Assembly: GCA_002010065.2 (NCBI GenBank)
Contig: MTMD02000002.1
Span: 320,001 to 384,000, forward strand
Direction: 5' to 3'
DNA from: Candidatus Pyrohabitans jungbluthii
GTDB taxonomy: Archaea > Hydrothermarchaeota > Hydrothermarchaeia > Hydrothermarchaeales > BMS3B
Length of the DNA: 64,000 nucleotides
The notes under the pieces are model-generated. The model did not search any database and was not told where the DNA came from. It saw nothing but the letters and a program-made list of their open reading frames with translations. Positions 49,003 to 54,499 of the stretch are shown one piece after another. The position numbers were made by a program, and so were the translations under genes. How positions within the stretch are numbered: position 1 is the first letter of the stretch; the number at the start of each line of letters is the position of its first letter.

Positions 49003-50949
49003 ATGGGACAAAAAGTGCAAATGCAGCAGGATTCGACTGACATTGCTCTCTTCGTTAAGGTCAGTGAGGGCGATGTGATAACCTGGGATAAAAGCAGGAT
49101 TGTGAAGTCACTGCTCAAGGAAACCACGATAGATGAGGCTACCGCACACCTAATCGCCGACAGGGTTGAGAGGATTATCCGCGACTCTGGTATTGAGTTC
49201 ATCACAGGTCCGCTAATCCGCGAGATCGTTAACGCTGAACTCATAAAGCTCAAGCTTGAGGAGCAGCGCAAGCAGTACACCCGCCTTGGTATGCCAATCT
49301 ACGACGTTGAACAGCTCATAACAAAGCAGAACAAGGAAAATGCCAACGTGCCTCATGGGCCAGAAGCGACCAACCTGAGCTTAGCCGAGAGTATAAAGAA
49401 GCAGTACGCTCTGCTAAAGGTGTTCTCACCCGACGTGGCACTCGCCCATGAGCGGGGCGATATTCACCTGCACGACTTAGGGTTTATAGACCGCCCTTAC
49501 TGCTCAGGTAATAGCATCGAGTACGTGAAGAAGTTCGGTCTCAACCTGCCCAACGCTCTTTCAATTTCAAAGCCAGCGAAGCATCCCGAGGTGCTGGTTC
49601 TCCACCTCATAAAGTTCTCAGCCGCCCTGCAGGGCGTGTTCGCGGGTGCAATAGGCTGGGATGCGGTGAACCTCTTCATGGCACCCTACTTCGTGGGGAA
49701 GTCGGACGAGGAGCTGGAGCAGGTCGCGCAGATGCTGGTCTTTGAGTTCGCCCAGCAGGCGGTTGCCAGAGGGGGACAGAGCATATTCAGCGATCTCAAC
49801 CTCTACTGGGAGGTGCCAAAGCACTTCGCCGACGTCGAAGCTATTGGCCCTGAGGGCAAGTACACGGGCAACACCTATGAGGATTACCTGCCCGAGGCGC
49901 AGCGCTTCGCGAGGGCTTTGATAAAGGTGTACATGCAGGGCGACGGCATGGGCAGGCCCTTCTTCTTCCCAAAGCCCCAGCTCCACATAACTGAACGCCT
50001 CTTCCGCACCGAGGGCTACGAGGAGTTTCTGTACGAGATAGCCCAGCTCTCCTCTGAGCGGGGCAACAGCTATTACGTGTTCGACCGCGGCGAAACCGCG
50101 AAGATTAGTGAGTGCTGCCGCCTTGCGTTCAAGCTGGATGAGAATGACCTGCGCGATGCCAAGACGCCCTGGAAGATGCGCTATTCTGCAATGCAGAATG
50201 TGACAATAAACCTGCCTCGCATTGCCTACGAGGCGAATGGCAACGACGACCTGCTGTTTGAGATTCTCTCGCAGAGAATGAAGCTCGCAGCCGAGGCGCA
50301 CGTTGCCAAGCGTGGCTTCATAACCAGGCTTCTTAACCTAGGGCTTCGCGGACCCCTCGGTTTGCTTGCCATGGATAAAGACGGCGAGCCCTACTACCGC
50401 CTGCACCGCGCCACCTTCCTCATGGGAATGCTGGGCTTGAATGAGCTGGTGCAGTACCACCTGGGCGAGGAGATGCACGAGAGCAATTATGCCCTTCGCT
50501 TTGGCTTGAAGGTCATAGCCCACATGAACAAGGAAAGTGAGCGCCTGAGCGAGGAGTACGATATGCGCTTCGTGCTGGAGCAGACTCCAGCGGAGAGCAC
50601 CGCTTACCGCATGGCAAAGCTCGACTTGGAGCACTATCCCAGCGAGACGCGAGAGGTGGTGAAGGGTAGCATAGAGCGCGGCGAGGTCTACTATACCAAC
50701 TCCACCTACCTGAACATCTCCGCACCAATATCGCCAATAGAGCGGGTTAAGAAGGAAGGGATGTTCCATCCCATGATTCACGCTGGCAGCCTCACCCACA
50801 TCTGGCTGGGCGAGGCGAAGCCTGACCCTGAAGCAATAGCCAAGTTCGTAGTGCGCACCTTCAAGCACACCACCAACGATCAGATAGCCTTCTCCCCCGA
50901 GTTCTCCTCATGTTTAGACTGTGGGCGGGTAGATCGCGGGCTGTGGTAG
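49003..50949 (+). CDS. nrdD: Class III (anaerobic) ribonucleotide reductase, catalytic core with ATP-cone; lacks the glycyl-radical C-terminus
   Basis: ATP-cone WDKSRIVKSL; AHERGDIHLHDL; PYCSG; FFFPKP; SECCRL; NVTINLPRIA; EQTPAES; YYTNS; ends CLDCGRVDRGLW*. Confidence 0.93.
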   Translation: MGQKVQMQQDSTDIALFVKVSEGDVITWDKSRIVKSLLKETTIDEATAHLIADRVERIIRDSGIEFITGPLIREIVNAELIKLKLEEQRKQYTRLGMPIYDVEQLITKQNKENANVPHGPEATNLSLAESIKKQYALLKVFSPDVALAHERGDIHLHDLGFIDRPYCSGNSIEYVKKFGLNLPNALSISKPAKHPEVLVLHLIKFSAALQGVFAGAIGWDAVNLFMAPYFVGKSDEELEQVAQMLVFEFAQQAVARGGQSIFSDLNLYWEVPKHFADVEAIGPEGKYTGNTYEDYLPEAQRFARALIKVYMQGDGMGRPFFFPKPQLHITERLFRTEGYEEFLYEIAQLSSERGNSYYVFDRGETAKISECCRLAFKLDENDLRDAKTPWKMRYSAMQNVTINLPRIAYEANGNDDLLFEILSQRMKLAAEAHVAKRGFITRLLNLGLRGPLGLLAMDKDGEPYYRLHRATFLMGMLGLNELVQYHLGEEMHESNYALRFGLKVIAHMNKESERLSEEYDMRFVLEQTPAESTAYRMAKLDLEHYPSETREVVKGSIERGEVYYTNSTYLNISAPISPIERVKKEGMFHPMIHAGSLTHIWLGEAKPDPEAIAKFVVRTFKHTTNDQIAFSPEFSSCLDCGRVDRGLW

Positions 50950-50966
50950 AACAGGAGGTGAAAGAA

Positions 50967-51437
50967 ATGGAAGAAGACATAATAAGCAACACGTGCCCCC
51001 ACTGTGGAAGCCACAACGTGGAGTACATAACCCGCGTAACTGGCTTCTTCTCTAAGGTGGGGAGCTGGAATAAGGGCAAGATAGCCGAACTCCGTGACAG
51101 GAGGCAGGCTATAGAGTGGAACAAGCGAAGCTTTCTGGGCAACGCTGGAAGCGTGCCTACCACGGCGACGCAGCGCAGGATAAAGCTCTTCTGGAAGCAG
51201 AACTGCCCGCGCTGCCCTGCTGCCAAGGAGCTTGCTGCAAAGCTGGAGGCGAAGGGTATTAAGGTGGAGTACTACGACGTGGAGAGCGTCGAGGGTATGG
51301 CAGAGGCAGGAATGCACTCTGTATTAGCGACGCCGAGCATCGTCGTGGTTGACGGCGAGGATGAAGAGATCGCCGCGTGGCGTGGCTCCGTGCCCAGCGA
51401 GCAGGAGCTTGCCGCGGCGGTGATGGGTGCAAACTAA
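50967..51437 (+). CDS. NrdD C-terminal half-Zn-ribbon and glycyl-radical domain fused to a glutaredoxin/thioredoxin domain
   Basis: Own SD GGAGGTGA (50954-50961); CPHCGSHNVEYITRVTGFFS..WNKGKIAELRDR; then KLFWKQNCPRCPAAK...VLATPSIVV. Confidence 0.88.
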   Translation: MEEDIISNTCPHCGSHNVEYITRVTGFFSKVGSWNKGKIAELRDRRQAIEWNKRSFLGNAGSVPTTATQRRIKLFWKQNCPRCPAAKELAAKLEAKGIKVEYYDVESVEGMAEAGMHSVLATPSIVVVDGEDEEIAAWRGSVPSEQELAAAVMGAN

Positions 51438-51470
51438 CCCACCCCTTTTTATTTTTGGAGGCGATAAAAA

Positions 51471-51908
51471 GTGGGATATGGAGCAATAAAAGTTGAGGAC
51501 ATAGAAATAATTAAAAAAATACTCCTACGCGAGGGGTTTTATGAGCCTATATTACAAACATGGAAAGATGGTCAAGTATTTGGCTTAGTTAAACCTTTAA
51601 ATGAACTGTTTGAAGTACATATACGAGCTTATGAAGATAACACCCTTGATGCAGAAGTGGAGTTATCTAGAGAATATTTAGAACATATTTTTAATGAAAG
51701 TAGGCCATATTATGGATTTTTAATTGAAATACTAAGAGATTATAAGGTACCATACAGAGTTATAAAATCGATCCCTCCAGATCCAAAGCTCATCTCAGTA
51801 CCAGAGATATTAATCAAATGGAAGCCACTAATGGCACTAGCTGTGATATTCGTTGGAATTGCTTTAATTGGAACATCAAATAAGCAAAATAATGGCATAT
51901 CTGTTTAA
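51471..51908 (+). CDS. Hypothetical protein (AT-rich) with C-terminal TM
   Basis: LQTWKDGQVFGLVK...EVHIRAY...AEVELSREYLEH; AT-rich codon usage. Confidence 0.65.
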   Translation: MGYGAIKVEDIEIIKKILLREGFYEPILQTWKDGQVFGLVKPLNELFEVHIRAYEDNTLDAEVELSREYLEHIFNESRPYYGFLIEILRDYKVPYRVIKSIPPDPKLISVPEILIKWKPLMALAVIFVGIALIGTSNKQNNGISV

Positions 51909-51927
51909 ATTAAAAAGAGGCATAAAA

Positions 51928-52635
51928 ATGCAAATCAAAGGCGTGCTCGAGACGAGCTTTGTAGACTGGGACGGGAAGATAGTCTCCACCATCTTCCTCC
52001 CCAGCTGCAACTTCCGCTGTGGCTTCTGCCATAACCACAAGCTGGTACTCAGCCCTGAGAGCTTTGAGGATGTGCCCTTAGACTATCTCCTTCGCTTCTG
52101 GCGGCGCAACCGCGATTTCCTCGACGGGGTGTGCATAACCGGTGGCGAGCCTACGCTGCACAAGGATTTACCCCAGCTATGTGCCACGATTAAGGAGCTT
52201 GGGTTGGAGGTGAAGCTGGATACGAACGGCTCCAACCCGGAGATGCTGCGCTCGCTTATCAAAGAAAAGCTTGTTGACTACATCGCCATGGATGTTAAGG
52301 CACCTCTGCGCGCCAAGGATTATTCCCGCGTGGCTGGCGTGGATATAAATGGCGAGCTTCGCCGCATAGAAAAGAGCATCGACATTATAATAACCTCCCG
52401 CATCGACCACGAGTTCCGCACCACTGTGATTAAGGGTGTGCACGGCGAGGATGAGGTCGAAGCTATAGCGCGCTCTTTGCAGGGTGCGAAGCGCTACGTG
52501 CTCCAGAAGTTTGTGCCTCACCTGGCGATGAGCGAAGAGCTTCGCAGGCTGGCGATGTTCAGCGATGAGGAGATGGATGCCCTGGTAGAGGCGGCGAGAC
52601 GGTATGTTCCTAATGTGAAGTGGAGGGGGAAGTGA
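51928..52635 (+). CDS. nrdG: Anaerobic RNR activating enzyme (radical SAM)
   Basis: SFVDWDGK, CNFRCGFCHN, ITGGEPTL, KLDTNGS, YIAMDVK, EFRTT. Confidence 0.92.
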   Translation: MQIKGVLETSFVDWDGKIVSTIFLPSCNFRCGFCHNHKLVLSPESFEDVPLDYLLRFWRRNRDFLDGVCITGGEPTLHKDLPQLCATIKELGLEVKLDTNGSNPEMLRSLIKEKLVDYIAMDVKAPLRAKDYSRVAGVDINGELRRIEKSIDIIITSRIDHEFRTTVIKGVHGEDEVEAIARSLQGAKRYVLQKFVPHLAMSEELRRLAMFSDEEMDALVEAARRYVPNVKWRGK

Positions 52636-52741
52636 TAGAAGAAGGATTGAGAAATGGGCCAATTTAGAATAGGAGAGGCGCATCATAAAAAATCGCATTT
52701 CATTATTGTAATTTTAGCAGTTGTGTAAAGTTTCAAGGGAT

Positions 52742-54499
52742 ATGGAAACTAAAAAAATCCAAAATAAGAATAAAAATAAGAAAATTAAGAGGAACATAGT
52801 TGAATATCTAAAAAATTTTTGTAATAGGCACAATAAGTTAGTAACCGGAGCTATTGGTTTTGTATTAGGTATCGTACTAACTTCGTATTTATCTCCAATA
52901 TTAGCACATATTTTCCCTTCTATTGATAAAGAACCACCAACAATTATTGAGGTTACTCCATTACCAAATTCAAACCTTTTCAATCTATCAGATATAAGAG
53001 TCAAAATTGAGGATAGTGGAGGATCTGGTTTAGACTTAGAGAGTTCTTTCATAAAGTTAACTGGAGCATATTCGGGAGAGATTAATGGTACCAAAATAAG
53101 CAAAGATAAGGTCTTAATTTTTATACCAAGCGAAAAATTAAAACCTGATATGTATACTGCTGAGTTTTTTATTAGAGATAGAGCTGGTAATCTAAAAAAA
53201 GATTTTTCAAGATTTACATTGTTTGAAAAACCAAAACTCAGATTTGACTTTTACGAAATGCCTCACTTATATTCTGAGAATGACGATGTCCATGGAATTA
53301 AATGGAAAGACAGATATATTGCATACAGTTTCGCTATAATAAATGAGGGCGATACAGTATCTTTAGAAGATATTGAAGTGACTTTTGATTTTCCAGGAGT
53401 AATACTAAACTATATTGTTATGGCAAAGACAAGCTGTGTAAATTGTAATATTATAGAAGCTCAATCAACTCCTTCAATAGTTTATGGAGGAAAAACAGAA
53501 ACAAACTTTTCTACATGTCAATTGATTATTGATATTGAAAAACTACCTCCTGGTGGTATCTTTGCGGGCATGATATTCATAGACCCTCAATATACGCCAA
53601 AATCTAATGAAGTAATCACATTTTGTGAATTTGGAAGTAGATATTATGGACATTATTTTTATAAGCAATTAGGGTGGACTCATCAAGGCAGTATTGAAGG
53701 AGAAATAAAGATGAGTCGGGATGCCTGGATAAATAAGGGAATTTTTTTGAGAAATATGGGAATAAAATATAATTTTCCAGAATATGTCAAAAATTCCTTA
53801 AATGCTTTTGATAATGCTATTAAAATCGATAAGAATAGTAGTGTCGCCTGGAATGAAAAAGGCATTTCACTTGCATATTTAGGGAATTTTTCAGGCGCAA
53901 TTCAAGCGTTTAATAAATCTATAAACATAAGTCCTAATTTTGAAAAACCATATTACAACATTGGCCTGATTTATTTTAAACTCAAAAATTGCGATATTGC
54001 AACAAATTATGCAAATAAAGCATTAGAAATCAACCCAAATTACGAAAAAGCGAACGAAATAATAAAAAATTGTGAAAAAGAAAATATAATTGCCCCAAGA
54101 GATATAAAAAATAAAATAAAAGATATAAATGAAAACGAAGGAACAATTATATTTACCACTAGTGACAGCAATTTATTCGAATCTGTTGGAGATATAATAA
54201 TATTTGATTTTCCAGTCGGAAGTTCTAGATTTATATTAAGAAGAGATGCGAATTTTAATTTATTTTTTGAGCATATAAGCATTCAAACAGGTATAAGAGT
54301 AGCTAAGATAAATCTAAGCGAATTTAAAAAGTGTGATAAACTCTTTATTGCACTAACATGGTCAAGAAAGGAAAATAAACTGTCTTTGGGTTGTTTAGGT
54401 GATAGAAAATTGGTCACAGAAAAGGCGATACAAATTGATAATAAAAATCTATTAATAAAAAATTTTTTAGAAGTACAACAATTTTTACAAGTAAAATAA
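52742..54499 (+). CDS. AT-rich membrane-anchored protein with Ig-like and TPR domains
   Basis: TM helix; DKEPPTI...DSGGSGLD...RDRAGN (Ig-like); TPRs AWNEKGISLAYLGNFSGAIQAFNKSINISP and YYNIGLIYF. Confidence 0.75.
   Translation: METKKIQNKNKNKKIKRNIVEYLKNFCNRHNKLVTGAIGFVLGIVLTSYLSPILAHIFPSIDKEPPTIIEVTPLPNSNLFNLSDIRVKIEDSGGSGLDLESSFIKLTGAYSGEINGTKISKDKVLIFIPSEKLKPDMYTAEFFIRDRAGNLKKDFSRFTLFEKPKLRFDFYEMPHLYSENDDVHGIKWKDRYIAYSFAIINEGDTVSLEDIEVTFDFPGVILNYIVMAKTSCVNCNIIEAQSTPSIVYGGKTETNFSTCQLIIDIEKLPPGGIFAGMIFIDPQYTPKSNEVITFCEFGSRYYGHYFYKQLGWTHQGSIEGEIKMSRDAWINKGIFLRNMGIKYNFPEYVKNSLNAFDNAIKIDKNSSVAWNEKGISLAYLGNFSGAIQAFNKSINISPNFEKPYYNIGLIYFKLKNCDIATNYANKALEINPNYEKANEIIKNCEKENIIAPRDIKNKIKDINENEGTIIFTTSDSNLFESVGDIIIFDFPVGSSRFILRRDANFNLFFEHISIQTGIRVAKINLSEFKKCDKLFIALTWSRKENKLSLGCLGDRKLVTEKAIQIDNKNLLIKNFLEVQQFLQVK

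What the first reader, a model, noticed from the sequence alone, without database searches (positions are those of the whole stretch)
49003..52635. Split class III RNR: glycyl-radical domain on a separate glutaredoxin-fused polypeptide, cut through the Zn ribbon
Seen: NrdD stops at CLDCGRVDRGLW* with only the first CxxC. After 17 nt containing a perfect SD (GGAGGTGA), a new ORF in another frame begins MEEDIISNT-CPHCGS...ITRVTGFFS (second CxxC plus Gly-radical loop) and continues into a CPRC redoxin domain. A stop, SD and start at the break argue against a simple frameshift error. Known: the Gly radical is normally in the NrdD C-terminus, O2 cleaves the chain there, and GrcA/YfiD is a stand-alone spare radical domain for PFL. 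Some NrdDs use redoxins instead of formate. Inference: a two-subunit RNR with an exchangeable radical-plus-reductant subunit, joined through an inter-subunit Zn site.
Basis: partly seen in the sequence, partly recalled or inferred. Interest (0 to 1): 0.8.

Follow-up and report, generated by a model that had tools for sequence, protein, structure and literature searches.

The report
Two-piece anaerobic ribonucleotide reductase, radical-plus-thioredoxin subunit
This deep-subsurface archaeon encodes its oxygen-sensitive DNA-precursor enzyme as a large catalytic body plus a separate small protein that carries the radical glycine, half of a zinc site and a built-in thioredoxin, a conserved layout that I could not find described in print.

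Summary
NrdD (49003-50949) stops after the first CxxC of its zinc ribbon. Seventeen bases later, behind GGAGGTGA, a 156-residue gene (50967-51437) supplies the second CxxC, the glycyl-radical loop (Gly26) and a thioredoxin-fold domain (CPRC). NrdG follows.

It is not an error. Contigs from 4 runs show the identical junction. All 11 genomes of the family carry it. Six more genomes of the order have the same break with the radical piece and the thioredoxin as separate small genes. Across these 17 loci the stop codon, spacer (13-226 nt) and frame offset (0, 1 or 2) vary, while an SD and a start codon (ATG in 16, GTG in 1) are always present.

Of the 120 closest NrdD clusters, 62 lack the radical domain, and 61 of the split forms make one clade. 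All parts are under purifying selection except the linker. A complex model scores 0.87 against 0.00 for controls, but likeness to one-chain NrdD structures may explain that.

Best reading: an obligate two-subunit, thioredoxin-type class III RNR bridged by a 2+2 Cys zinc site. "Exchangeable" remains untested.

This scan noted split NrdDs before on other DNA. The radical-plus-thioredoxin fusion is the new element here. Five literature searches found no description.

The parts
49003..50949 (+). nrdD body (648 aa plus TAG): weak ATP-cone-like N-terminus, NrdD barrel, beta-A Cys167, finger-loop Cys371-Cys372 (ECCR). It ends 8 residues after the first zinc knuckle.
   Evidence: PF13597 417.8 bits; TIGR02487 371.9 bits against a cut-off of 326.35. 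Invariant residues in 50 aligned split-type bodies. C167 aligns with T. maritima NrdD Cys125.
50911..50922 (+). First zinc knuckle, CLDC (Cys637, Cys640), the last conserved element of the body.
   Evidence: Invariant in 50 of 50 aligned bodies. Present in 62 of 62 GRD-less relatives. In the predicted interface, C637 touches C10 of the small chain.
50947..50966 (+). TAG stop of nrdD and the 17-nt spacer, with Shine-Dalgarno GGAGGTGA at 50954-50961.
   Evidence: A GGAGGT-type SD lies before the start codon (ATG in 16, GTG in L005) in 17 of 17 split loci, while stop codon, spacer length and frame offset vary.
50967..51137 (+). Small subunit, residues 1-57: second zinc knuckle CPHC (Cys10, Cys13; 50994-51005), glycyl-radical loop RVTG (Gly26; 51042-51044) and the following helix.
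   Evidence: NRDD profile 522-560. Invariant in 22 of 22. dN/dS 0.026-0.050. Docks on body residues 631-640 and 372-373 in the model.
51138..51173 (+). Variable linker, residues 58-69.
   Evidence: dN/dS 0.31-2.1. pLDDT below 50 for residues 59-66. Unconserved in alignment A2.
51174..51437 (+). Thioredoxin-fold domain, residues 70-156, with active site CPRC (Cys80, Cys83; 51204-51215) and cis-Pro Pro123, plus the stop codon.
   Evidence: PF13192, PF00462. (1J08, 1A8L, 1FO5). (pLDDT 86-91). (thioredoxins are the top Foldseek matches). C80, C83 and P123 invariant. dN/dS 0.037-0.122.
51471..51908 (+). ORF3: 145-aa protein of unknown family with a hydrophobic C-terminal stretch. A variable insert between the small subunit gene and nrdG.
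   Evidence: No Pfam or NCBIfam match. Homologues at the same position only in L006-L008 (45-54% identity). No match in the other 24 loci searched, L002-L005 and L009-L028. Whether it belongs to the system is unknown.
51928..52635 (+). nrdG, the radical-SAM activase.
   Evidence: TIGR02495 NrdG2 205.6 bits against a cut-off of 131.15. Start inferred from relatives.

Best explanation
This is an obligate two-subunit class III (glycyl-radical) ribonucleotide reductase of the thioredoxin-dependent type.

The genes nrdD(body), grd-trx, (orf3) and nrdG lie head to tail on one strand. The 17-nt gap before grd-trx holds its own SD, and each protein is translated from its own start.

The 648-residue body holds the barrel, the beta-A cysteine (C167), the finger-loop cysteine pair (C371/C372) and only the first half of the C-terminal zinc ribbon (C637, C640). 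The 156-residue small subunit brings the other half (C10, C13). One Zn(Cys)4 site and a beta-strand pairing (body 631-638 with small subunit 17-23) then clamp the two chains together. This places Gly26 beside the finger-loop cysteines.

NrdG converts Gly26 to the glycyl radical, which generates the thiyl radical for nucleotide reduction. The disulfide formed in the body is then reduced by the thioredoxin domain (C80/C83), which hangs from the radical domain on a roughly 12-residue flexible linker. The thioredoxin domain is itself re-reduced by a cellular reductase.

History: a one-chain NrdD with a neighbouring thioredoxin gene was first broken between the two zinc knuckles. Later, in this family, the small radical gene fused with the thioredoxin gene downstream.

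Shown here: gene anatomy, conservation, selection, phylogeny and a structural model. Inferred: zinc bridging, radical placement, electron path and activity.
For: 1. The break is real. Identical junction in contigs of 4 runs.

2. It is conserved. The full-length small subunit is present in all 11 genomes of family f1 (3 genera, 60-100% identity). Six more genomes of the order have the same break with separate radical and thioredoxin genes.

3. The genes are independent cistrons. In 17 of 17 loci there is a stop codon (TAG, TAA or TGA), an SD and a start codon (ATG in 16, GTG in L005). Spacers run from 13 to 226 nt and the frame offset is 0, 1 or 2. In L009, L010, L014, L015 and L016 the second frame opens only after the nrdD stop.

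4. Breadth. 62 of the 120 best 90%-identity clusters end 6-15 residues after the first CxxC, and 58 are one-chain. On a tree built from the body alone, 61 split forms make one clade (SH-aLRT 100) and 2 lie apart, giving 2 changes.

5. Selection. dN/dS is 0.025-0.060 for the body, 0.026-0.050 for the radical part, 0.037-0.122 for the thioredoxin part and 0.31-2.1 for the linker. C10, C13, G26, C80, C83 and P123 are invariant in 22 of 22 sequences. C167, C371, C372, C637 and C640 are invariant in 50 of 50.

6. Cysteine bookkeeping. The Cys are split 2+2 here. In the other kind of split, the body keeps 4 and the small chain has 0.

7. Complex model. ipSAE 0.87 against a best control of 0.00. This mark was reached by 58 of 80 solved complexes and 2 of 110 mismatched pairs. 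Runs agree in at least 87% of contacts, and partner pLDDT is at least 81. Contacts include 631-638 with 17-23, 637 with 10, and 372-373. Because one-chain NrdD structures are solved, this pass may only reflect likeness to them.

8. Folded alone, the radical part is poorly ordered (pLDDT 40-62) while the thioredoxin part is confident (86-91).

9. Redoxin link. A thioredoxin gene sits directly between nrdD and nrdG in 8 one-chain relatives and in 5 of the 6 unfused split loci (L013-L017); in the sixth (G016) the search places a thioredoxin match about 50 nt after the radical piece. The finger loop reads ECCR, without the methionine that marks formate users. The xCCR-without-Met pattern is tied to thioredoxin use in passages of PMC9669993 and PMC4493059.

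10. A distant lineage made a radical-thioredoxin fusion independently (P0302, P0319, P0323).

11. The small subunit's loop is the only NrdD-type glycyl loop found in this 99.95%-complete genome.
Against: - There are no RNA, protein or activity data.
- The genome also holds a class I/II-type reductase (PF02867, 472.6 bits), so the split enzyme need not be essential.
- The complex model can pass from memory of one-chain NrdD structures. I did not see its coordinates, so the zinc geometry was not inspected.
- The thioredoxin active-site cysteines are not among the confidently placed interface residues.
- HMMER did not align the finger loop cleanly to phage T4 Cys290.
- The active-site glutamate that helps define thioredoxin-type NrdDs was not tested.
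- Many one-chain relatives have no thioredoxin gene within 3 kb: 39 of the 52 one-chain loci.
Confidence: 0.8

Rival explanations
1. Sequencing or assembly error, or a recently broken pseudogene of an ordinary one-chain NrdD.
For: A stop followed by a change of frame inside a conserved domain is what a 1-base indel would produce.
Against: The junction is identical in contigs of 4 runs at word depths of 227-1684. The same break is present in 17 genomes with varying spacers and in 62 protein clusters. Both pieces are under strong purifying selection. An SD plus a start codon is conserved.
Confidence: 0.01
2. Programmed recoding (frameshift or stop read-through) makes one continuous NrdD-thioredoxin chain from the two frames.
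For: In the window the second frame is open from 50910, overlapping the end of nrdD. In L003 and L006 the two genes are in the same frame, separated by one stop.
Against: The frame offset is 0, 1 or 2 and the stop is TAG, TAA or TGA among close relatives. In 5 loci the second frame opens only after the nrdD stop. Spacers reach 125 and 226 nt. Every locus has its own SD and start codon. Reading through the window's TAG runs into TGA four codons later.
Confidence: 0.03
3. The two chains do form the reductase, but the fused thioredoxin domain is not its electron donor. It could instead be a structural or regulatory add-on or a protector of the radical, with reduction by formate or a free redoxin.
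For: C80 and C83 are not in the confident interface of the model. 39 of the 52 one-chain relatives have no thioredoxin gene within 3 kb.
Against: CPxC and the cis-proline are invariant. The gene order nrdD-trx-nrdG recurs in split and one-chain relatives. The fusion arose independently in another lineage. The finger loop lacks the methionine linked to formate use (passages). In class I, a glutaredoxin fused to the radical subunit NrdB works as the reductant (PMC6187632; title and start of abstract seen).
Confidence: 0.12
4. The small subunit is mainly a replaceable cartridge. It is activated off the enzyme, docked, and swapped after oxygen damage, so the split is adaptive rather than neutral.
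For: Oxygen cleaves glycyl-radical enzymes at the radical glycine, and PFL is rescued by the small protein GrcA/YfiD (review PMC13450708, passages). The radical part is disordered when modelled alone. Other archaea keep free NrdD-type radical proteins beside a complete NrdD.
Against: This was not tested. A Zn(Cys)4 clamp and about 200 contacts suggest a stable complex. There is only one copy of the small gene in this genome. The split could be neutral.
Confidence: 0.3

Closest known systems
One-chain class III RNR NrdD with activase NrdG (phage T4 1H78/1H79, T. maritima 4COI/4U3E, P. copri 8P23, 9D3X)
   Same: Same barrel family, same C-terminal zinc ribbon plus glycyl loop by sequence, same adjacent radical-SAM activase.
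   Different: In all solved and described enzymes the zinc ribbon and the radical glycine are the C-terminus of the same chain. Here they lie on a second polypeptide, and the four zinc cysteines are divided 2+2 between chains.
Thioredoxin-dependent NrdD (Neisseria bacilliformis and T. maritima type, 'NrdD2'/NrdDh)
   Same: Beta-A cysteine, xCCR finger loop without methionine, and a redoxin partner (the original Wei et al. 2014 paper was not read and is cited only through these passages).
   Different: Those enzymes use a free thioredoxin. Here the redoxin is covalently tethered to the radical-bearing subunit. The motif is ECCR, not SCCR. This sequence clade is archaeal and only distantly related to T. 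maritima NrdD (phmmer E 3.6e-13).
GrcA/YfiD (and phage T4 Y06I), autonomous glycyl-radical 'spare part' of pyruvate formate-lyase
   Same: A small free-standing protein carrying a glycyl-radical domain that must dock into a large barrel.
   Different: GrcA is PFL-type and backs up an enzyme that has its own radical domain. Here the loop is NrdD-type, the body has no radical domain of its own, the piece carries half a zinc site and a thioredoxin, and it is encoded inside the operon. The 2026 review states that spare parts are known only for formate lyases (passages).
Split class II RNR NrdJa+NrdJb (Pseudomonas aeruginosa)
   Same: An RNR whose C-terminal cysteine-rich zinc module, needed for turnover, is encoded by a separate downstream gene (passages in PMC9669993 and PMC5704485).
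   Different: Different class (B12 enzyme). NrdJb carries no radical, and its zinc site lies within one chain.
Facklamia ignava NrdB with fused glutaredoxin (class I)
   Same: A redoxin fused to the subunit that harbours the radical, acting as the RNR reductant (PMC6187632; title and start of abstract seen).
   Different: Class I di-metal/tyrosyl subunit with an N-terminal fusion. Not a glycyl-radical domain.
Inter-chain zinc sites (Rad50 zinc hook, CD4/CD8-Lck zinc clasp; recalled, no call)
   Same: Two cysteines from each of two chains share one zinc ion to hold the chains together.
   Different: Unrelated proteins. Cited only as precedent for a 2+2 site.

Membership tests
Class III RNR (NrdD/NrdG) | NrdD ten-stranded barrel domain | tested here: met
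   PF13597 417.8 bits (cut-off 26.2). TIGR02487 371.9 bits (cut-off 326.35).
Class III RNR (NrdD/NrdG) | C-terminal glycyl-radical loop (RVxG[FY]) on the catalytic chain | tested here: not met
   The body ends at residue 648 without it. The loop (Gly26) is on the next gene's product, matching NRDD profile positions 522-560. The feature is therefore met only in trans.
Class III RNR (NrdD/NrdG) | Zn(Cys)4 ribbon before the glycyl loop | tested here: inconclusive
   All four cysteines are present and invariant, but split 2+2 over two chains. The model places them together. Metal binding cannot be shown with these tools.
Class III RNR (NrdD/NrdG) | Dedicated radical-SAM activase NrdG nearby | tested here: met
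   TIGR02495 205.6 bits (cut-off 131.15) at 51928-52635.
Class III RNR (NrdD/NrdG) | NTP reduction through a glycyl then thiyl radical | not testable with these tools
   Needs anaerobic reconstitution, EPR and activity assays.
Thioredoxin-dependent NrdD (NrdD2-like) | Beta-A cysteine plus double-cysteine finger loop without the upstream methionine | tested here: met
   C167 aligns with T. maritima Cys125. The ECCR motif is invariant. The criterion is taken from passages of PMC9669993 and PMC4493059.
Thioredoxin-dependent NrdD (NrdD2-like) | Active-site glutamate as proton source | not tested
   I could not map it reliably from the HMMER alignments.
Thioredoxin-dependent NrdD (NrdD2-like) | Turnover supported by a thioredoxin system, not formate | not testable with these tools
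   Only gene context supports it.
Thioredoxin-fold redoxins | Trx fold with CxxC and cis-proline | tested here: met
   PF13192 39.6 bits (cut-off 24.8) and PF00462 26.8 bits (cut-off 22.9). AF2 pLDDT 86-91. Thioredoxins are the top Foldseek matches, best E 1.2e-5 with probability 1.00. C80, C83 and P123 are invariant. The NCBIfam MJ0307 family is below its cut-off (33.7 against 92.75), so the domain is not filed in that equivalog.
GrcA/YfiD-type spare part | Homology to the PFL C-terminal glycyl-radical domain | tested here: not met
   The small protein matches the NRDD profile. No PFL or Gly_radical family is listed among its Pfam matches.
GrcA/YfiD-type spare part | Co-exists with a full-length enzyme that has its own radical domain | tested here: not met
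   The PF13597 search of this genome finds two bodies without a glycyl loop, and only this one loop.

The most novel reading that the evidence does not exclude
This would be a glycyl-radical enzyme whose radical cofactor is, by design, a separate small protein: a 'cartridge' that carries the radical glycine, half of an inter-chain zinc clamp and its own tethered electron donor. NrdG would activate the cartridge off the enzyme. It would dock by completing the Zn(Cys)4 site, and it could be discarded and replaced after oxygen damage without resynthesis of the 648-residue body.

Together with the free NrdD-type radical proteins found beside complete NrdDs in Thermoplasmata, this would extend the spare-part principle beyond pyruvate formate-lyase. 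A 2026 review lists that extension as an open question.
Probability: 0.3. Interest if true: 0.9.

Novelty: new variant of a known kind. Interest (0 to 1): 0.75.

Why it matters
Glycyl-radical enzymes are described as single chains that carry their radical at their own C-terminus. The only known free radical domains are the GrcA-type spare parts of pyruvate formate-lyase. A 2026 review says it is undetermined whether such proteins exist for other glycyl-radical enzymes.

A naturally two-piece class III RNR gives several openings:
- A direct handle on how the radical domain leaves and re-enters the barrel for activation.
- A test of the role of the NrdD zinc site, which here would be the inter-subunit clamp.
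- A minimal 17-kDa substrate for NrdG.
- A built-in reductant that could settle how thioredoxin reaches the class III active site.

It also affects annotation. Split-type bodies carry the plain name 'anaerobic ribonucleoside-triphosphate reductase' where a source names them, while the one small-subunit cluster that carries a source name is called 'hypothetical protein'.

Tried and rejected
- RNA evidence: no RNA holder was listed for 50500-51500, so nothing can be said about expression.
- Essentiality: rejected as an argument, because the genome also has a PF02867-type reductase.
- Pyrrolysine or stop read-through of the TAG: reading through meets TGA four codons later, and relatives use TAA or TGA.
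- Intein or intron split, as in the phage nrdD genes of PMC3653736 (passages): the spacer is 17 nt, and no extra domain is listed in the Pfam results.
- Mapping the finger-loop cysteine onto T4 Cys290, and mapping the NrdD2 glutamate: the HMMER alignments were not reliable there.
- Second NrdD-like gene of the genome as another client of the small subunit: it lacks the beta-A cysteine, the CC pair and the zinc cysteines. It descends from the order's one-chain NrdD lineage. There is no evidence that it uses the small subunit.
- Loci L023, L026 and L028, fetched, gave no match to my motif pattern and were not read further.
- Literature searches with no relevant result: 'split NrdD', 'NrdD split', 'truncated NrdD', 'split class III', 'NrdDa', 'two-subunit class III'; anaerobic RNR with 'autonomous glycyl radical' and 'spare part'; NrdD with 'separate gene', 'separately encoded', 'two polypeptides', 'separate open reading frame'.
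- Supplementary files were not consulted. RNRdb-based supplementary tables of PMC4493059 and PMC5704485 could list such sequences.

Full report
OBSERVATION.

The ORF 49003-50949 encodes 648 residues and ends eight residues after a CLDC motif, at a TAG. Seventeen bases follow, containing GGAGGTGA (50954-50961) five bases before an ATG at 50967. From that ATG a 156-residue ORF in the +2 frame runs to 51437.

This ORF begins with CPHC (C10, C13), continues with the loop ITRVTGFFS (Gly26) and ends in a domain with CPRC (C80, C83).

Profile searches show the break is clean. Pfam NRDD positions 1-517 of 562 are in the first protein and 522-560 in the second. NCBIfam TIGR02487 positions 1-537 and 539-580 are divided the same way.

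The C-terminal domain passes the Pfam cut-offs of Thioredoxin_3 and Glutaredoxin. It resembles archaeal glutaredoxin-like PDO and the MJ0307 thioredoxin in the PDB by sequence. It folds confidently as a thioredoxin (pLDDT 86-91; thioredoxins top the Foldseek list).

A 145-residue ORF of no known family (51471-51908) and the activase NrdG follow. NrdG scores 205.6 bits against a TIGR02495 cut-off of 131.15, and its start is most likely the ATG at 51928.

IT IS NOT AN ERROR.

Logan contigs of four runs from four studies cover 50700-51300 without a single difference or indel. Three runs may be the source of this DNA. The fourth is not flagged as a source, and its contig crosses the junction at word depth 1684.

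More tellingly, a search of 41 genomes found the full-length small protein in all 11 genomes of the window's family, which spans 3 genera at 60-100% identity. In six further genomes of the same order (G013, G016, G019, G025, G027, G033), NrdD also ends just after the first CxxC. There the radical piece is a 58-70-residue gene of its own, and a separate thioredoxin gene follows in L013-L017; for G016 the thioredoxin match is known only. NrdG was read downstream in L013-L017.

I tabulated the junction in all 17 loci:
- The stop is TAG, TAA or TGA.
- The spacer is 13-226 nt.
- The second gene lies in frame 0, +1 or +2 relative to nrdD.
- In five loci its frame opens only after the nrdD stop.
- Every locus has a GGAGGT-type SD and a start codon (ATG in 16, GTG in L005).

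This pattern fits two cistrons. It does not fit a sequencing slip, a pseudogene or programmed recoding.

HOW WIDE, AND HOW OFTEN.

I searched with residues 300-648 of the body. Among the 120 best 90%-identity clusters, 62 end 6-15 residues after the first CxxC and 58 are ordinary one-chain NrdDs. In the one-chain forms the two CxxC motifs are ten residues apart.

I built a tree on the body alone, cut before the zinc ribbon. It had 117 rows plus 2 outgroups. Four rows shorter than 590 residues were dropped. The method was quick IQ-TREE with LG+G4. It puts 61 split forms in one clade (SH-aLRT 100) and two (P0109, P0129) elsewhere, so two changes are needed. Source names attached to members include Hydrothermarchaeales, 'Candidatus Pyrohabitans', Methanobacteriota and Thermoproteota.

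The thioredoxin fusion occupies a sub-clade of the split clade: the family f1 rows, probably with their sister P0076. The P0076 pairing with a fusion protein rests only on matching contig length and source. One-chain relatives with the order nrdD-trx-nrdG exist: 8 of the 52 one-chain loci.

The simplest history is therefore:
1. A one-chain NrdD with a neighbouring thioredoxin gene.
2. A break between the two zinc knuckles.
3. In this family, fusion of the small radical gene to the thioredoxin gene.

An exhaustive profile search of 1.84 billion representatives found 1285 proteins at E up to 0.001, 230 up to 1e-10 and only one up to 1e-30. At 50% clustering, this fusion family is a single cluster.

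Among the best 150 hits were:
- 14 small proteins (54-104 residues) that match the radical part only.
- Three long NrdDs that match both parts (judged by matched ranges only, not read).
- Three small proteins of another lineage (P0302, P0319, P0323) that also join a glycyl loop to a CPxC thioredoxin, but without zinc cysteines (read). This is an independent invention of the same pairing.

SELECTION.

Against four congeners (dS 0.26-1.26), Nei-Gojobori dN/dS values are:

| Part | dN/dS |
|---|---|
| Body | 0.025-0.060 |
| Radical part (residues 1-57) | 0.026-0.050 |
| Thioredoxin part (residues 70-156) | 0.037-0.122 |
| Linker (12 codons) | 0.31-2.1 |

In 22 small-subunit clusters, C10, C13, the whole loop around G26, C80, C83 and P123 are invariant. 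In 50 bodies, C167, C371, C372, C637 and C640 are invariant.

HOW IT MOST LIKELY WORKS.

The four zinc cysteines of NrdD are conserved as a set but divided 2+2. In a different kind of split found in bacteria, the body keeps both CxxC motifs and the free radical protein has none (4+0). That the total stays at four argues that the site is completed across the interface here.

A complex prediction of body, small subunit and zinc gave ipSAE 0.87 against 0.00 for the best of three controls. The mark was reached by 58 of 80 solved complexes and 2 of 110 mismatched pairs. The runs agree in at least 87% of contacts, and partner pLDDT is at least 81.

In that model:
- Body residues 631-638 pair with small-subunit residues 17-23.
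- C637 touches C10.
- The finger-loop residues 372-373 are at the interface.

Because one-chain NrdD structures are solved, this pass may only show likeness to them. I did not see the coordinates.

Modelled alone, the radical part is poorly ordered (pLDDT 40-62) and the linker is below 50. That fits a piece which folds on docking.

The reductant assignment rests on four points:
- The recurrent nrdD-trx-nrdG context.
- The invariant CPxC and cis-proline.
- C167 aligning with T. maritima Cys125.
- The ECCR finger loop without the methionine that marks formate users. This criterion comes from passages of PMC9669993 and PMC4493059.

The active-site glutamate was not tested. Binding, zinc content, radical placement, electron path and activity are all inferred.

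WHAT SPEAKS AGAINST, OR IS OPEN.

- No RNA run holds the stretch, so expression is unknown.
- The genome has another reductase of the class I/II type, so the split enzyme need not be essential.
- The thioredoxin cysteines are not in the confident interface.
- 'Exchangeable' has no support here. The small gene is single, and its loop is the only NrdD-type glycyl loop found in this 99.95%-complete genome. It is therefore an obligate part, not a spare.

COMPARISON WITH WHAT IS KNOWN.

The system works like a thioredoxin-type class III RNR, and by its barrel and activase it is one. It fails one defining feature of the described family, the radical glycine on the catalytic chain, which it meets only in trans.

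The nearest analogies are:
- GrcA/YfiD of pyruvate formate-lyase. This is a free radical domain, but PFL-type and a back-up to a complete enzyme.
- The split class II enzyme NrdJa+NrdJb. Its C-terminal zinc/cysteine module is encoded by a separate gene.
- The glutaredoxin fused to the radical subunit NrdB of Facklamia ignava (title and start of abstract seen).

[quoted passage not shown] It adds that it is yet to be determined whether such proteins exist for others (PMC13450708, passages).

Phage nrdD 'split genes' in the literature are mostly interrupted by introns, inteins or homing endonucleases; one (phage phiAS4) is fragmented by an unexplained process (PMC3653736, passages).

Five full-text searches (and 54 for the fusion analogy) gave no paper that describes a class III RNR with its glycyl domain on a separate protein. 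Supplementary files were not consulted.

EARLIER NOTES OF THIS SCAN.

Looked up after my own analysis, earlier notes report split NrdDs on other DNA: phages, Caldisericota, Asgard archaea and Pseudomonas. Separately they report one-chain NrdDs with a C-terminal thioredoxin. None reports the radical-thioredoxin small subunit, and a sequence look-up with it found nothing.

The split as such is therefore a repeated find of this scan.

VERDICT.

The feature is real and conserved. It is most likely a functional two-subunit class III RNR with a zinc-bridged small subunit that unites the radical and the reductant. It is a new variant of a known kind, apparently undescribed in print, and it is readily testable.

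Noticed in passing
L032-L039 (e.g. L035 2889-3611 and 3893-4297); genomes G041, G042, G044: This is a family of proteins of about 98 residues (alignment A3). Each has an NrdD-type glycyl loop, no zinc cysteines and a novel N-terminal domain of about 60 residues. In Thermoplasmata and Methanobacteriota genomes it co-exists, unlinked, with complete one-chain NrdDs (profile positions 1-560). In L035 it sits directly after an NrdG gene. It looks like a GrcA-style spare-part candidate for class III RNR.
   Followed up: partly
L042 1160-5521, L044 33-5703, L059 1-5564, L058 1491-3946: A second kind of split occurs in uncultured bacteria. In L042, L044 and L059 the NrdD body keeps both CxxC motifs but stops just before the glycyl loop. 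A 98-residue free radical protein lies 0.25-2.4 kb downstream, followed by a thioredoxin gene and NrdG. In L058 only the free radical protein, the thioredoxin gene and NrdG are seen, and no NrdD body was found in the locus.
   Followed up: partly
G000 contig 5 = L030 955-3009 and 2963-3700: The same genome holds a second NrdD-like gene (684 aa, 30% identical). It lacks the beta-A cysteine, the CC finger loop, the zinc cysteines and any glycyl domain, and it ends at a degenerate first knuckle. It descends from the order's one-chain NrdD lineage (48-50% identity to those). An NrdG2-like radical-SAM gene follows, scoring at the family cut-off (131.1 bits). The ORF is intact and conserved in the genus (67-96% identity), so it may be a pseudo-enzyme or have a new function.
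   Followed up: partly
window 51471-51908: ORF3 encodes 145 residues with no family match and a hydrophobic C-terminal stretch. It sits between the small subunit gene and nrdG. Homologues at the same place occur only in one other genus (L006-L008, 45-54% identity), and it is absent from the closest congeners.
   Followed up: partly
L016 and L017 against the window (junction table): The break point has shifted within the split clade. In L016 and L017 the body ends 4 residues after CLDC, and the conserved xVRGI/L motif lies on the small protein. In the window and most others, the RGL motif ends the body.
   Followed up: no
L014 spacer (125 nt) and L016 spacer (226 nt) between body and radical gene: Both long spacers carry a possible small ORF that starts in an ATGA overlap with the nrdD stop (about 41 and about 75 codons). 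Their meaning is unknown.
   Followed up: no
P0302, P0319, P0323: These are small proteins (163-169 aa) of another lineage. They join an RIVGYY-type glycyl loop, preceded by a helix-like N-terminus without cysteines, to a CPxC thioredoxin. This is an independent radical-thioredoxin fusion. Their genomic context was not examined.
   Followed up: no
window 52721-54499: Directly after the nrd operon lies a 592-residue ORF that is strikingly rich in K, N and I, unlike its neighbours. It is possibly foreign DNA.
   Followed up: no
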